From Escherichia phage WPEC6: 64,000 nt of DNA. How positions within the stretch are numbered: position 1 is the first letter of the stretch; every line of letters begins with the position of its first letter. The translations under genes and the position numbers were made by a program. Under the pieces are notes generated by a model, which saw nothing but the letters and a program-made list of their open reading frames with translations, was not told where the DNA came from and made no database searches. The stretch lies in sequence record PV763039.1. One strand, given 5' to 3'. This document shows, piece by piece, positions 60,977-62,259 of this stretch.

Positions 60977-61031
60977 TTGATCCCGTTTTATATTGTGTTA
61001 TAGTTATTGTGTAGGGCGGCAATGGTGCCGC
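60977..61031 (+). promoter_or_regulatory. promoter-hairpin element E8 (TTGATC-16-TATAGT, tgtGTAGGGCGG + stem)
   Basis: read in sequence. Confidence 0.6.
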
Positions 61032-61051
61032 GCCCCTTTGAGGATGAAACC

Positions 61052-61336
61052 ATGAGTAAAGCTAACACCGTGCTAATGTTTTCCCTGGTTAATGATGCCG
61101 CTTACTTGTCCAACATGACGCAAGATGATAGCACATTAACGGCAACATTTACCGATGGACTCAACAGAGTGATCATCGTATCATTGAAAACGATTAGTAA
61201 AGGCTTTTACTCGTTGGCTTATCATTGGGTAACAGACAGCGACGAGACAAGCCAGGACTATAGCGCCCCGTTCCCTGAATCAATGGCACGGGAGATCATC
61301 GCCGCCGTTGTAAATGATGGTTTGTTTACTGCATAA
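61052..61336 (+). CDS. hypothetical protein
   Basis: ATG 61052 after E8 hairpin, RBS gaggatg (track ORF 61007..61336). Confidence 0.55.
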   Translation: MSKANTVLMFSLVNDAAYLSNMTQDDSTLTATFTDGLNRVIIVSLKTISKGFYSLAYHWVTDSDETSQDYSAPFPESMAREIIAAVVNDGLFTA

Positions 61337-61354
61337 AATAATTTAGAAAAAGGC

Positions 61355-61411
61355 TTGCAATCGTTTTGAGATAGTGTATATTTAATTCATAGGGCGGCGG
61401 GAATAGTTCCC
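61355..61411 (+). promoter_or_regulatory. promoter-hairpin element E9 (TTGCAA-16-TATATT, cataGGGCGG + stem gggaa/ttccc)
   Basis: read in sequence; box precedes a different stem. Confidence 0.55.
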
Positions 61412-61434
61412 AAGGCAAACGAGAGGATTACACG

Positions 61435-61554
61435 ATGAGCAAGTACACAGTAGAATACACGGTAGAAAATCCGGCAGTATCCGAAGGTAAAAAGATGACA
61501 TTTGCCATCAGTATAATCGCTTTCGTTGTCACTATCTTATCAATCATCTTATAA
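61435..61554 (+). CDS. small membrane peptide (39 aa)
   Basis: hand-translated MSKYTVEYT...FAISIIAFVVTILSIIL; RBS gagagga. Confidence 0.4.
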   Translation: MSKYTVEYTVENPAVSEGKKMTFAISIIAFVVTILSIIL

Positions 61555-61564
61555 GGTGCATACC

Positions 61565-61726
61565 ATGAAAACAGCAGACATTATCAAAGAGATCGCCCTT
61601 GCCGCTGACGTTGAAATCGAGGAAATGATCGCGCTCAATCTTACAGAAAACGATCTGCGCAACTATGAAGCGGAAAGCGTGAAAGCAAGCGGCGCGGTCC
61701 TGGCATATAATCCAGCTAACAAATAA
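61565..61726 (+). CDS. small hypothetical protein
   Basis: internal ATG of track ORF 61526..61726 with RBS aaggtg. Confidence 0.45.
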   Translation: MKTADIIKEIALAADVEIEEMIALNLTENDLRNYEAESVKASGAVLAYNPANK

Positions 61727-61727
61727 T

Positions 61728-61785
61728 TTGACAAGCTGAATCAACCTGATAAGATGTATCCCGTAGGGGCGACAAGCGCCCCGCC
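61728..61785 (+). promoter_or_regulatory. promoter-hairpin element E10 (TTGACA-16-TAAGAT, ccGTAGGGGCG + stem ggggcg/cgcccc)
   Basis: read in sequence. Confidence 0.6.
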
Positions 61786-61803
61786 TAACAGAGAGATGAA
61801 ATC

Positions 61804-62082
61804 ATGACCATCGTTAAATTAACAACCGAAGAAATGAAAACAATGTTAACCACTAATTTACAAAATTGGAAAATTGGTGTTGACGTTGAAACAGTGTGCA
61901 AGTTGAACGACAAACTAACACCAGACGACATTGCAACGATCATTGATGCTAATTTCTATGATGTTTTACATGATGATTCCATTAGTTTTGAAATAGTGTT
62001 AGATAACACTTGGATCGATCCTGGTTTGTCGGTTTATGGTCGGCTTGCTTTCGATGCAATCCACAATGTTTATAATCGTTAA
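61804..62082 (+). CDS. hypothetical protein
   Basis: ORF track 92 aa; RBS agagagatgaaa. Confidence 0.55.
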   Translation: MTIVKLTTEEMKTMLTTNLQNWKIGVDVETVCKLNDKLTPDDIATIIDANFYDVLHDDSISFEIVLDNTWIDPGLSVYGRLAFDAIHNVYNR

Positions 62083-62091
62083 GGGGATAGT

Positions 62092-62202
62092 ATGAATCCT
62101 AGAGATATGCAATCTTGGAAAGGGTACGACGATCTAAGCGCCTTGCGCAATAAATCAAGCCGTAACCTTAGACGGTTGGAAGCAAAGAAAAAGAAAAAAT
62201 AG
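62092..62202 (+). CDS. small basic peptide (36 aa)
   Basis: hand-translated MNPRDMQSWKGY...; RBS aagggga. Confidence 0.35.
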   Translation: MNPRDMQSWKGYDDLSALRNKSSRNLRRLEAKKKKK

Positions 62203-62203
62203 T

Positions 62204-62259
62204 TTGACAAGCCTGTTTAATCTGGTAATATTCATCTTGTAGGGCGGCAATGGTGCCGC
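62204..62259 (+). promoter_or_regulatory. promoter-hairpin element E12 (TTGACA-16-TAATAT, cttGTAGGGCGG + stem)
   Basis: read in sequence. Confidence 0.6.

What the first reader, a model, noticed from the sequence alone, without database searches (positions are those of the whole stretch)
60977..62259. Same promoter + GTAGGGCGG + hairpin architecture recurs at the far end of the window
E8, E9, E10 and E12 repeat the left-cluster architecture about 56 kb away, again with stem covariation (ggggcg/cgcccc in E10, gggaa/ttccc in E9). The element marks both plus-strand small-gene blocks, suggesting one regulon (for example an immediate-early class). The tRNA-Gly promoter region at 27050-27062 also reads aggtagggcg.
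Basis: seen in the sequence. Interest (0 to 1): 0.65.

Follow-up and report, generated by a model that had tools for sequence, protein, structure and literature searches.

The report
Repeated early promoter and leader-hairpin cassette
A roughly 95-base expression cassette (strong host-type promoter, then a transcript that probably starts (G/A)UAGGGCGG and folds into a short GC hairpin, then an A-rich ribosome-binding leader) sits in front of many small early genes of this phAPEC8-like coliphage; it is real and non-random, but it is a variant of a known kind of phage promoter/stem-loop cassette, and the "56 kb apart" layout looks like an assembly artefact.

Summary
GTAGGGCGG with at most 1 mismatch occurs 12 times, against 2.9 expected. 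All ten TAGGG[CG][GC]G sites lie 7-8 nt after the -10 of a consensus sigma-70 promoter. Each is followed by a GC hairpin, a ~19-nt A-rich Shine-Dalgarno leader and the ATG of a small gene of unknown function.

The window is a Phapecoctavirus (phAPEC8-like). In the complete relative DIJ07P1, all 11 motif sites lie in one 6-kb block on one strand. The window's two clusters are adjacent there. The window's breakpoints match assembly-graph debris in the 100%-identical WPEC records, so the 56-kb separation is probably mis-scaffolding.

The same architecture occurs in Justusliebigvirus, Vequintavirinae and some 42-kb siphoviruses. T5-like pre-early DNA shares the promoter and start of the leader, but without the adjacent hairpin. 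Hairpin arms covary (arm-swap test 0/2000), and no U-tract follows the hairpin.

Best reading: an early-gene expression cassette whose transcript has a 5'-proximal stem-loop. That stem-loop most likely stabilises or insulates the mRNA. The repeated copies also act as module boundaries, like the PeSL cassettes of T4-like phages. The hairpin's function is inferred, not shown. The phAPEC8 GenBank record already annotates the 20-mer as a "putative promoter (PHIRE)". Verdict: new variant of a known kind, moderate to low interest.

The parts
60977..61034 (+). Cassette E8: -35 TTGATC, -10 TATAGT (TG-extended), GTAGGGCGG 61011-61019, hairpin 61014-61034. Drives ORF 61052-61336 (94 aa, PHROG 10737, unknown function).
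61355..61416 (+). Cassette E9: -35 TTGCAA, -10 TATATT, ATAGGGCGG 61389-61397, weak hairpin GGGAA-UAG-UUCCC (-7.8 kcal/mol). Drives ORF 61435-61554 (39-aa membrane protein).
61728..61782 (+). Cassette E10: -35 TTGACA, TG-extended -10 TAAGAT, variant GTAGGGGCG 61763-61771, hairpin GGGGCG-ACAAG-CGCCCC 61766-61782. Drives ORF 61804-62082 (92 aa).
62204..62264 (+). Cassette E12: -35 TTGACA, TG-extended -10 TAATAT, GTAGGGCGG 62239-62247, hairpin to 62264. Homology to every relative breaks at 62264/62265, so the late-region DNA that follows (Rz/terminase) is probably not its native downstream gene.
979..1038 (-). Minus-strand cassette (-35 1038-1033, GTAGGGCGG 1003-995, hairpin 1003-979). It points antisense into ORF 614-982 and is one arm of a 38-nt inverted repeat with the copy at 2288-2324.
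1776..1837 (-). Minus-strand cassette (-35 1837-1832, GTAGGGCGG 1802-1794, hairpin GGGCG...CGCCC 1799-1776). Drives a small ORF at 1757-1653.
2216..2276 (-). Minus-strand cassette with variant ATAAGGCGG and hairpin GGCGGGAAG-UGG-UUUCCCGCU. Drives ORF 2193-2023.
2288..2324 (+). Cassette with -10 TAATAT, GTAGGGCGG 2301-2309 and hairpin 2304-2323. Its -35 is missing because of a junction at about 2283; the DIJ07P1 orthologue has TTGACA there. Followed by ORF 2351-2455.
2767..2827 (+). Cassette: ATAGGGCGG 2802-2810, hairpin GGCGG(U)GGAA-UAC-UUCCCCGCC. Drives ORF 2849-3211.
3218..3274 (+). Cassette: GTAGGGCGG 3253-3261, hairpin GGCGGCA-AUGG-UGCCGCC. Drives ORF 3297-3476.
3944..4006 (+). Cassette lacking the TAG triplet (AUCAAGGCGG...), hairpin AGGCGG(C)GGA-AUGG-UCC(A)CCGCCU. 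Drives ORF 4030-4203.
4496..4554 (+). Cassette: GTAGGGCGG 4531-4539, hairpin GGGCGGGAA-CUG-UUCCUGCUC with two G:U pairs. Drives ORF 4572-4925.
4932..4986 (+). Cassette without GTAG (UGGCGGCAAUGGUGCCGCUA). Its downstream ORF (ATG 5005) is cut by the junction at 5044/5045.
27020..27064 (+). tRNA-Gly promoter: TTGACA 27020-27025, TATAGT 27044-27049, then GTAGGGCGT 27056-27064. GUAGG would be a 5-nt leader and the tRNA starts at 27061. It has the same promoter and start context as the cassettes but no separate hairpin.

Best explanation
The finding is one family of repeated early-gene expression cassettes, about 95 nt from -35 to ATG.

Each cassette has these parts in fixed order:
- an A/T-rich tract that holds the stop codon of the gene upstream;
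- a near-consensus sigma-70 promoter (TTGACA, 16-17 nt, often TGnTAnnnT);
- an 8-nt discriminator (consensus tTATCAC-R);
- a transcript that, judged from promoter geometry, starts at that R and reads (G/A)UAGGGCGG;
- a 5-12-bp GC hairpin beginning about 3-4 nt from the predicted 5' end, whose 5' arm is the GGCGG of the motif;
- a roughly 19-nt A-rich unstructured leader with a Shine-Dalgarno sequence;
- the ATG of a small gene of unknown function.

Shown here: the anatomy, its rigid spacing, its restriction to promoter-proximal positions in one early block, its presence in several phage groups, covariation of the hairpin arms, and the absence of a U-tract.

Inferred: host RNA polymerase fires these promoters immediately after infection. 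The 5'-proximal stem-loop then limits access of RppH and RNase E to the 5' end, and sequesters the G/C-rich start of the transcript so that the ribosome-binding leader stays open. The result would be stable, well-translated early mRNAs.

Because the cassette is repeated in front of unrelated genes, it also serves as a homology patch where gene modules are exchanged, as described for the PeSL cassettes of T4-like phages.
For: Motif enrichment: 12 matches against 2.9 expected. All 10 window sites and all 11 sites in the 142.9-kb genome of DIJ07P1 lie 7-8 nt after a consensus -10. In DIJ07P1 they are all on one strand within 78.5-84.7 kb.

Same architecture in other phages: Justusliebigvirus alia and Vequintavirus slur16, phiTE and CR3/CR8, and 42-kb siphoviruses.

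Test with hairpin-independent selection: of 58 unique promoter-linked TAGGGCGG sites, 91% have a hairpin of -10 kcal/mol or better in the next 32 nt. The figure is 35% for 34 sites lacking a promoter at the right distance, mostly chance matches in unrelated contigs (p = 4e-8).

Covariation: 50 distinct hairpins average -12.9 kcal/mol. Arm-swapped chimeras average -9.35, and 0 of 2000 permutations matched the native mean. Distinct stems exist, such as CA/UG, GAA/UUC, GGA/UCC, GGGGCG/CGCCCC and GGGCG/CGCCC.

Geometry over 67 unique cassettes: hairpin end to ATG has a median of 19 nt (IQR 18-21). An SD-like sequence is present in 63 of 67. The leader is 50% A. The 8 nt after the hairpin hold only 1.1 T on average. 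In 49 of 67, 3-4 nt are unpaired before the stem.

The 20 nt upstream of the -35 are 80% A+T, against 62% for the window. Downstream ORFs belong to unrelated PHROG families of unknown function.

Homology breakpoints between 10 related early regions fall in cassettes 32% of the time against 8% expected. Within non-ORF space the figures are 41% against a 21% share. A hybrid hairpin, GGCGGGAAUAGUGCCGC in DIJ07P1 (cassette at 82031), combines the arms of two classes.

The stabilising effect of 5' secondary structure against RppH and RNase E is established knowledge (review PMC3997798).
Against: No transcription start site has been mapped, so the '3-4 nt from the 5' end' figure is a prediction from spacing only.

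Single-hairpin z-scores are weak, -0.5 to -2.1.

Strand asymmetry is not significant: sense -12.9 against antisense -12.2 kcal/mol, p = 0.054, with 18 G:U among 405 pairs. One common class has a C/A mismatch that would pair on the antisense strand. RNA-level function is therefore not proven.

Three to four unpaired 5' nucleotides is at the upper limit reported for protection. This figure is from my own knowledge of the ompA work and was not checked here.

Not every early promoter in relatives carries a hairpin. E9's hairpin is weak.

Conservation of the 5' arm and of the loop (AAURGU) could reflect recent duplication or gene conversion rather than selection. The breakpoint enrichment partly reflects the fact that cassettes fill the intergenic space.
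Confidence: 0.55

Rival explanations
1. A true PeSL-type element. The stem-loop's main job would be to terminate or attenuate transcription arriving from the upstream cassette, so that each small gene is driven only by its own promoter. The repeat would mainly serve as a recombination site for module shuffling and mini-circle formation.
For: The anatomy closely matches the published PeSL description: stop codon in an AT-rich tract, sigma-70 promoter, stem-loop, SD, ATG, upstream of genes of unknown function in hyperplastic regions. One described subclass has the stem-loop downstream of the -10. Breakpoints are enriched at cassettes, and a hybrid hairpin exists. The ASO2A record annotates one copy as a terminator.
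Against: No U-tract follows the hairpin: 1.1 T in the next 8 nt, with A-rich sequence instead. The consensus terminator scan picks up none of them on the sense strand. The stem-loop position is fixed inside the predicted transcript, whereas in PeSLs it is usually placed variably within the promoter.
Confidence: 0.2
2. The conserved (G/A)UAGGGCGG plus hairpin with an AAURGU loop is a recognition site for a specific phage or host protein. It could act on RNA, like RegA or a coat protein, or on DNA as an operator. This would give coordinated switch-off or control of the early class, which is the first reader's 'regulon'.
For: The 5' arm and the loop are more conserved than pairing alone requires. 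The motif is conserved across subfamilies. Its start, with the discriminator, is shared with a T5-like pre-early promoter. It is restricted to one temporal or functional gene block.
Against: The spacing between GGCGG and CCGCC varies from about 6 to 14 nt, and the inner stems covary. Both are unlike a dimeric DNA operator. Some classes have quite different stems and loops, such as GGGGCG-ACAAG and GGGCG-...AAUAAGG.... The sequence conservation can be explained by duplication. No candidate binding protein was identified.
Confidence: 0.15
3. The hairpin and motif have no function of their own. They are passengers of a promoter cassette that spread by duplication and recombination.
For: Copies within a genome are near-identical over 40-70 nt. 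Some early promoters lack the hairpin. One cassette, at L024 6629, has the motif with no hairpin.
Against: Pairing is maintained through different stem sequences (0 of 2000 in the arm-swap test). The architecture persists in subfamilies with little nucleotide identity. The rigid 19-nt distance to the ATG is also maintained.
Confidence: 0.07
4. A mobile or enzyme-recognised DNA hairpin. This could be REP-like (GTAG followed by a palindrome, the substrate of a RAYT transposase) or an N4-like hairpin promoter for a phage RNA polymerase. It could also be the 'phage-specific promoter' implied by the PHIRE annotation in phAPEC8.
For: GTAG immediately 5' of a GC palindrome resembles the REP layout (from my own knowledge). 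The phAPEC8 GenBank record labels the 20-mer as a putative promoter.
Against: There is no match in 5,426 E. coli genomes, and only one metagenome-assembled contig among 185,579 species representatives. Every copy is co-oriented with, and at a fixed distance from, a sigma-70 promoter. About half of the copies read ATAG rather than GTAG. The 20-mer lies downstream of a complete consensus promoter, so no separate promoter is needed.
Confidence: 0.03

Closest known systems
PeSL (promoter-early stem-loop) cassettes of T4-like phages (Arbiol et al. 2010, PMC2839356; Comeau et al. 2014, PMC4122927)
   Same: Both are repeated composite motifs in hyperplastic early regions. Both have the stop codon of the upstream gene in an AT-rich tract, a strong sigma-70-like promoter, a GC stem-loop, an SD sequence and the ATG of a gene of unknown function. 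In both, the copies coincide with indel and replacement boundaries between related genomes.
   Different: The phage lineage differs (Stephanstirmvirinae and Vequintavirinae, not T4-like). Here the stem-loop has one fixed position just after the predicted start site, so it is transcribed as the 5' end of the mRNA. It carries a conserved 5' arm (UAGGGCGG) and has no U-tract. PeSL stem-loops mostly lie between or over the -35 and -10 and were shown to terminate transcription.
5'-terminal stem-loop mRNA stabilisers (E. coli ompA and papA 5' UTR; T7 gene 10 leader)
   Same: Both are short GC hairpins within a few nucleotides of the 5' end of a highly expressed mRNA, followed by an open ribosome-binding leader. 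This is the mechanism proposed here. Its general basis is reviewed in PMC3997798. The T7 example is from my own knowledge.
   Different: Those examples are single, experimentally tested leaders. Here there is a multi-copy family with no mapped 5' ends or half-life data, and 3-4 predicted unpaired nucleotides.
'Putative promoter determined with PHIRE' features in the phAPEC8 GenBank record (NC_020079)
   Same: It is exactly the same sequence: GTAGGGCGGCAATGGTGCCG at 556-575, 937-956, 1787-1806 and 3202-3221.
   Different: That annotation treats the 20-mer as a promoter in itself. Here it is shown to lie immediately downstream of a complete sigma-70 promoter. In one case the record itself annotates that promoter directly in front of the 20-mer.
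T5-like (Tequintavirus) pre-early promoter upstream of the A2 gene region
   Same: It shares 27 identical nucleotides (TATTAT-TTATCACG-TAGGGCGGCAATG), covering the -10, the discriminator and the first transcribed bases. It lies in the first DNA to enter the cell.
   Different: No complementary 3' arm follows, so there is no immediate hairpin. It is a single copy per terminal repeat.

Membership tests
PeSL cassettes (T4-like phages) | [quoted passage not shown] | tested here: met
   TTGACA, 16-17 nt, (TG)nTAnnnT in 11 of 13 window cassettes. The 20 nt upstream are 80% A+T against 62% for the window.
PeSL cassettes (T4-like phages) | A stable stem-loop forms part of the promoter motif | tested here: met
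   91% of 58 promoter-linked motif sites have a hairpin of -10 kcal/mol or better. The position is fixed after the -10 and start site, which is only one of the five described PeSL subclasses.
PeSL cassettes (T4-like phages) | Concentrated in hyperplastic regions, immediately upstream of genes of unknown function | tested here: met
   All 11 sites in DIJ07P1 lie within 6.2 kb. Downstream ORFs belong to unrelated PHROG families of unknown function.
PeSL cassettes (T4-like phages) | The stem-loop acts as a transcription terminator or attenuator | not testable with these tools
   The sequence argues against a classical intrinsic terminator: 1.1 T in the 8 nt after the stem, and none is flagged on the sense strand. 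A reporter assay is needed.
PeSL cassettes (T4-like phages) | Cassettes are the points of genetic exchange between related genomes | tested here: met
   32% of 238 homology-block ends fall in cassettes against 8.3% expected (maximum 15.5% in 1000 randomisations). Within non-ORF space the figures are 41% against a 21% share. Caveat: cassettes fill much of the intergenic space.
PeSL cassettes (T4-like phages) | Carried by T4-like myoviruses | tested here: not met
   The window is a Phapecoctavirus (Stephanstirmvirinae).
5'-terminal stem-loop mRNA stabilisers | Hairpin within a few unpaired nucleotides of the mRNA 5' end | tested here: inconclusive
   The predicted start (R, 8 nt after the -10) gives 3-4 unpaired nt in 49 of 67 cassettes. 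No start site has been mapped.
5'-terminal stem-loop mRNA stabilisers | Structure, not sequence, is maintained | tested here: met
   Arm-swap permutation 0 of 2000, with several distinct stem classes. Evidence for the RNA strand specifically is only marginal (p = 0.054).
5'-terminal stem-loop mRNA stabilisers | Lengthens mRNA half-life by blocking RppH and RNase E 5'-end access | not testable with these tools
   Needs half-life measurements in wild-type, rppH and rne mutant hosts.
Intrinsic (Rho-independent) terminator | GC hairpin followed directly by a U-tract | tested here: not met
REP / RAYT-type GTAG-hairpin repeats | Copies in the host chromosome, in extragenic positions and in either orientation, with an associated Y1 nuclease | tested here: not met
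   No match in E. coli genomes and one metagenome-assembled contig only. All copies are co-oriented with a promoter. The nuclease was not searched for.
Any described RNA family (Rfam 15) | Match at gathering score | tested here: not met
   Only tRNAs were found in the window.

The most novel reading that the evidence does not exclude
The 5' leader (G/A)UAGGGCGG plus hairpin, often with an AAURGU loop, may be a specific cis-acting RNA signal rather than a generic stabiliser. Virulent enterobacterial phages of unrelated families share at least part of it on their very first transcripts: Stephanstirmvirinae, Vequintavirinae and 42-kb siphoviruses carry the cassette, and T5-like pre-early DNA carries the promoter and leader start. 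The signal would be read by a host factor. For example, it could exempt phage mRNAs from phage-induced, RNase E-driven host mRNA decay, or let them evade or trigger a defence system.
Probability: 0.12. Interest if true: 0.7.

Novelty: new variant of a known kind. Interest (0 to 1): 0.35.

Why it matters
If the hairpin is a 5' stabiliser or insulator, these cassettes are compact, naturally optimised expression units. They would explain how dozens of tiny host-takeover genes are expressed strongly within minutes of infection in a widespread group of therapeutic-candidate coliphages (phAPEC8-, phi92- and rV5-like).

The cassettes also mark the places where gene modules are swapped. This extends the PeSL idea beyond T4-like phages. 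It is also one plausible reason why short-read assemblies of these phages break and get mis-joined close to these repeats.

On the practical side, existing annotations call the same 20-mer a 'promoter' in phAPEC8 and one copy a 'terminator' in ASO2A. On this evidence both labels are probably wrong.

Tried and rejected
- **Rfam.** A search at gathering threshold found only tRNAs.
- **RNAalifold.** Run on an unguided MAFFT alignment of 52 variants, it gave no consensus structure. Loops of 3-6 nt put the stems out of register. I used an alignment-free arm-swap test instead, and did not build a covariance model.
- **Single-sequence folding.** z-scores were unimpressive.
- **Host origin (REP or host promoter).** No hits in E. 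coli genomes, and only one metagenome-assembled contig.
- **Intrinsic terminator.** No U-tract.
- **DNA operator.** Variable half-site spacing and covarying inner stems argue against it.
- **Literature.** The phAPEC8 and PVP-SE1 genome papers are not held. The rV5 paper lists promoters only to 7 nt past the -10 and does not mention the hairpin. The ASO2A and phiTE papers say nothing about it. I found no transcriptome of this phage group. A motif text search returned only G-quadruplex aptamer papers.
- **IMG/VR scan.** The 15-mer scan returned many chance hits in unrelated GC-rich contigs. I used these as a negative control.
- **Not done.** I did not search for an Srd-like RNase E activator in this phage. 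The rV5 paper reports a putative Srd homologue. Any link to hairpin protection is speculation.
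Full report
**What is there**

The region 60977-62264 holds four copies of one architecture. Each copy has, in order:
- a sigma-70-type promoter: -35 TTGACA/TTGATC/TTGCAA, a 16-nt spacer, and a -10 TAnnnT, TG-extended in three of the four;
- 7-8 nt of discriminator;
- (G/A)TAGGGCGG, or GTAGGGGCG in E10;
- a GC hairpin whose 5' arm is the GGCGG of the motif;
- an A-rich leader with a Shine-Dalgarno sequence;
- the ATG of a small ORF.

Nine more copies lie at 979-4986. Six are on the plus strand and three on the minus strand.

GTAGGGCGG with at most one mismatch occurs 12 times against 2.86 expected, and none of 100 shuffles reached 12. Nine of the twelve are cassette copies and one is the tRNA-Gly promoter. 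The remaining two (GTTGGGCGG at 33273 and 55007) have no promoter and look like chance.

All ten TAGGG[CG][GC]G sites sit at the same distance from a -10 hexamer. E9's hairpin is weak (-7.8 kcal/mol). Single-sequence folding z-scores are modest, -0.5 to -2.1.

**Where the window comes from, and the '56 kb' claim**

The window is a Phapecoctavirus. It is 93% identical to phAPEC8 and 100% identical, in pieces, to phages WPEC1, WPEC2 and WPEC4.

I compared it with the complete genome of Phapecoctavirus DIJ07P1 (142,881 bp). The window is a jumble of at least five segments:
- window 2750-5044 = DIJ07P1 80184-83609;
- window 60886-61672 = DIJ07P1 84161-84947;
- window 1-940 = DIJ07P1 85883-86822;
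- window 28434-60886 = DIJ07P1 117615-86825, inverted;
- window 62264-64000 = DIJ07P1 412-2148, which is the Rz/terminase region.

So the 'two clusters' are neighbours in one early block in DIJ07P1. The same holds in ESCO37, at 138301-141701 and 142247-143630.

The three 100%-identical WPEC records share the window's breakpoints but join them in different orders and orientations. The WPEC2 record contains dozens of tandem 72-82-nt fragments that equal the window sequence flanking exactly those breakpoints. That is the signature of assembly-graph debris.

I conclude that the 56-kb separation is probably a scaffolding artefact. So are the late-region DNA after E12 and the missing -35 of the copy at 2288-2324. 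In WPEC2 and phAPEC8, E12 is followed by a 285-nt gene of unknown function.

**Genome-wide and cross-phage distribution**

In DIJ07P1, TAGGG[CG][CG]G occurs 11 times. All are on one strand, all lie within 78.5-84.7 kb, and all sit 8 nt after a consensus -10. With a broader definition (strong promoter plus a 5'-proximal hairpin) a few further copies appear elsewhere, for example DIJ07P1 56677 and window 9772.

The same architecture, with variants of the motif (TAAGGCGG, TAGAGCGG, TAGGCGGG, TAGCGCGG) and of the stem, occurs in:
- Justusliebigvirus alia and Vequintavirus slur16;
- Pectobacterium phage phiTE and Cronobacter phages CR3 and CR8;
- 42-kb siphoviruses such as IME279 and sortkaff.

A promoter in the pre-early region of T5-like phages shares 27 identical nucleotides, from the -10 through TAGGGCGGCAATG. 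It lacks the immediate 3' arm.

There is no counterpart in 5,426 E. coli genomes. Only one metagenome-assembled contig among the GTDB species representatives carries it.

**Is the hairpin real?**

I selected sites by the 5' motif and a promoter only, independently of any hairpin. Of 58 unique sites, 91% have a hairpin of -10 kcal/mol or better in the next 32 nt. The figure is 35% for 34 sites without a promoter at the right distance, mostly chance occurrences in unrelated contigs (p = 4e-8).

Fifty distinct hairpins average 8 bp and -12.9 kcal/mol. Swapping 3' arms between copies raises the mean to -9.35, and none of 2000 permutations matched the native value. The arms therefore covary.

The stem classes include:
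- GGCGGCA-AUGG-UGCCGCC;
- GGCGGGAA-UAG-UUCCCGCC;
- GGCGGGAAA-UGG-UUUCCCGCC;
- GGCGG(C)GGA-AUGG-UCC(A)CCGCC;
- GGGGCG-ACAAG-CGCCCC;
- GGGCG-...-CGCCC.

Orthologous copies differ by pair-preserving changes. One example is G:C to G:U between window 4534-4554 and the DIJ07P1 motif site at 83097.

Evidence that the sense RNA is the folded strand is only marginal (p = 0.054; 18 G:U among 405 pairs). RNAalifold on an unguided alignment failed because loop lengths differ. Rfam has nothing.

**Geometry and what it implies**

Over 67 unique cassettes:
- the hairpin ends a median of 19 nt (IQR 18-21) before the ATG;
- 63 have an SD-like sequence;
- the leader is 50% A;
- the 8 nt after the hairpin contain 1.1 T on average, so this is not an intrinsic terminator;
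- the ORFs are 27-154 codons long.

The 20 nt upstream of the -35 are 80% A+T and usually hold the previous gene's stop codon.

With the usual spacing of 7-8 nt from the -10 and the preference for a pyrimidine followed by a purine at the start site, the start is most likely the R of CAC-R-TAGGG. This is an inference. It would leave 3-4 unpaired nucleotides before the stem in 49 of 67 cassettes.

Both RppH and the 5'-end-dependent pathway of RNase E need single-stranded 5' termini. This is the accepted explanation for the stabilising effect of 5' secondary structure (PMC3997798). A 5' stabiliser or insulator is therefore the most economical mechanism.

The tRNA-Gly promoter uses the same start context. 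GUAGG would be a 5-nt leader directly abutting the tRNA. The DIJ07P1 copy reads ATAGGGCG.

**Recombination**

Between ten related early regions, 32% of 238 homology-block ends fall within a cassette, against 8.3% for random positions (maximum 15.5% in 1000 trials). Within non-ORF space the figures are 41% against a 21% share.

One DIJ07P1 copy has a hybrid hairpin. Its 5' arm comes from the GAA class and its 3' arm from the CA class, and the inner pairs are lost. Downstream genes belong to unrelated PHROG families.

This matches the behaviour described for the PeSL cassettes of T4-like phages. In PeSLs, however, the stem-loop usually lies within the promoter and was shown to terminate transcription.

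**What is already known**

The phAPEC8 GenBank record annotates exactly this 20-mer (GTAGGGCGGCAATGGTGCCG) four times in its first 5 kb as 'putative promoter determined with PHIRE'. In one case it lies directly after a 'host dependent promoter determined with MEME'. The ASO2A record calls one copy a terminator. The rV5 paper lists the sigma-70 promoters but stops 7 nt after the -10. I found no paper that describes the leader hairpin or its function in this phage group.

**Verdict**

This is a real, non-random, structured repeat. It is best explained as an early-gene expression cassette: a sigma-70 promoter, a 5' leader hairpin and an open ribosome-binding leader. It also behaves as a module boundary.

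The anatomy and distribution are shown here. The stabiliser function, the start site and the early timing are inferred. It is a new variant of a known kind (PeSL-like), not a new class. Interest is moderate to low (0.35). It would be higher only if the conserved leader turns out to be a specific signal shared by the first transcripts of unrelated coliphages.

Noticed in passing
window junctions at about 940, 2283, 5044/5045, 28210-28434, 60885/60886, 62264/62265: The window is rearranged relative to well-assembled relatives (DIJ07P1, ESCO37, phAPEC8). WPEC1, WPEC2 and WPEC4 (100% identical) share the same breakpoints in different orders. WPEC2 contains tandem 72-82-nt copies of the sequences flanking these breakpoints. 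The source record is probably mis-scaffolded from short-read contigs.
   Followed up: yes
window 979-2324: A 1.3-kb block carries three minus-strand cassettes and minus-strand small ORFs. It is flanked by inverted copies of the 38-nt sequence ATAATATTTACCACGTAGGGCGGCAATGGTGCCGCTCA. Flipping the block would put all cassettes on the plus strand and give the 2288 copy a proper -35. This is either a real inversion between inverted cassettes or a mis-oriented contig.
   Followed up: partly
L058 (Salmonella phage GEC_vB_N3, Tequintavirus) 1501-1608; also L011, L013, L018, L022 and others: T5-like phages carry, about 5 kb from the left end (pre-early region, upstream of small ORFs leading to A2), a promoter TTGCGC-N17-TATTAT-TTATCACG-TAGGGCGGCAATGACG. 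It shares 27 identical nt with the window cassette but has no adjacent 3' arm. A GGCGGGAAGTTTACCGCC hairpin lies about 20 nt further on.
   Followed up: partly
L028, L039, L040, L049 (42-49-kb contigs; Klebsiella phage IME279, Escherichia phage sortkaff) and L046 (Pectobacterium phage phiTE): The same discriminator-motif-hairpin-SD-ATG layout (…TATCACA-TAGGGCGG-hairpin…) occurs in siphoviruses of about 42 kb and in Certrevirus-type myoviruses. The module therefore crosses phage families.
   Followed up: partly
window 9772-9711, minus strand: A consensus promoter (TTGACT, 16 nt, TATAAT) has a similar discriminator (atagcaca) followed by a different 5'-proximal hairpin, UGGGAGGA-GGUGAG-UCCUCCCA (-14.9 kcal/mol). 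It lies ahead of a 136-codon ORF in the nucleotide-metabolism region and is conserved in DIJ07P1 and phAPEC8.
   Followed up: no
L005 32031-32090 (= DIJ07P1 82031-82090): The hybrid hairpin GGCGGGAAUAGUGCCGC combines the 5' arm of the GAA/UUC class with the 3' arm of the CA/UG class, and the inner pairs are lost. It looks like the product of recombination inside the loop of two cassettes.
   Followed up: partly
window 25702-27627: A tRNA cluster: ARAGORN tRNAs (Met, Arg, Ser, Asn, Thr, Gly, Gln, Pro, Ile, Met). Rfam reports an 11th tRNA-like match at 26399-26483 (39 bits) that ARAGORN does not call.
   Followed up: no
window 980-1003: The stop codon (TGA, 980-982) of plus-strand ORF 614-982 overlaps the hairpin of the minus-strand cassette. 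That cassette's promoter would transcribe antisense to the ORF and has no convincing ORF of its own.
   Followed up: no
window 4200-4245: One early promoter (TTGACT, 16 nt, TATAAT) has its inverted repeat (TATAGCGCC...GGCGCTATA) wrapped around the -10 instead of after it. This resembles the commoner PeSL subclasses.
   Followed up: no
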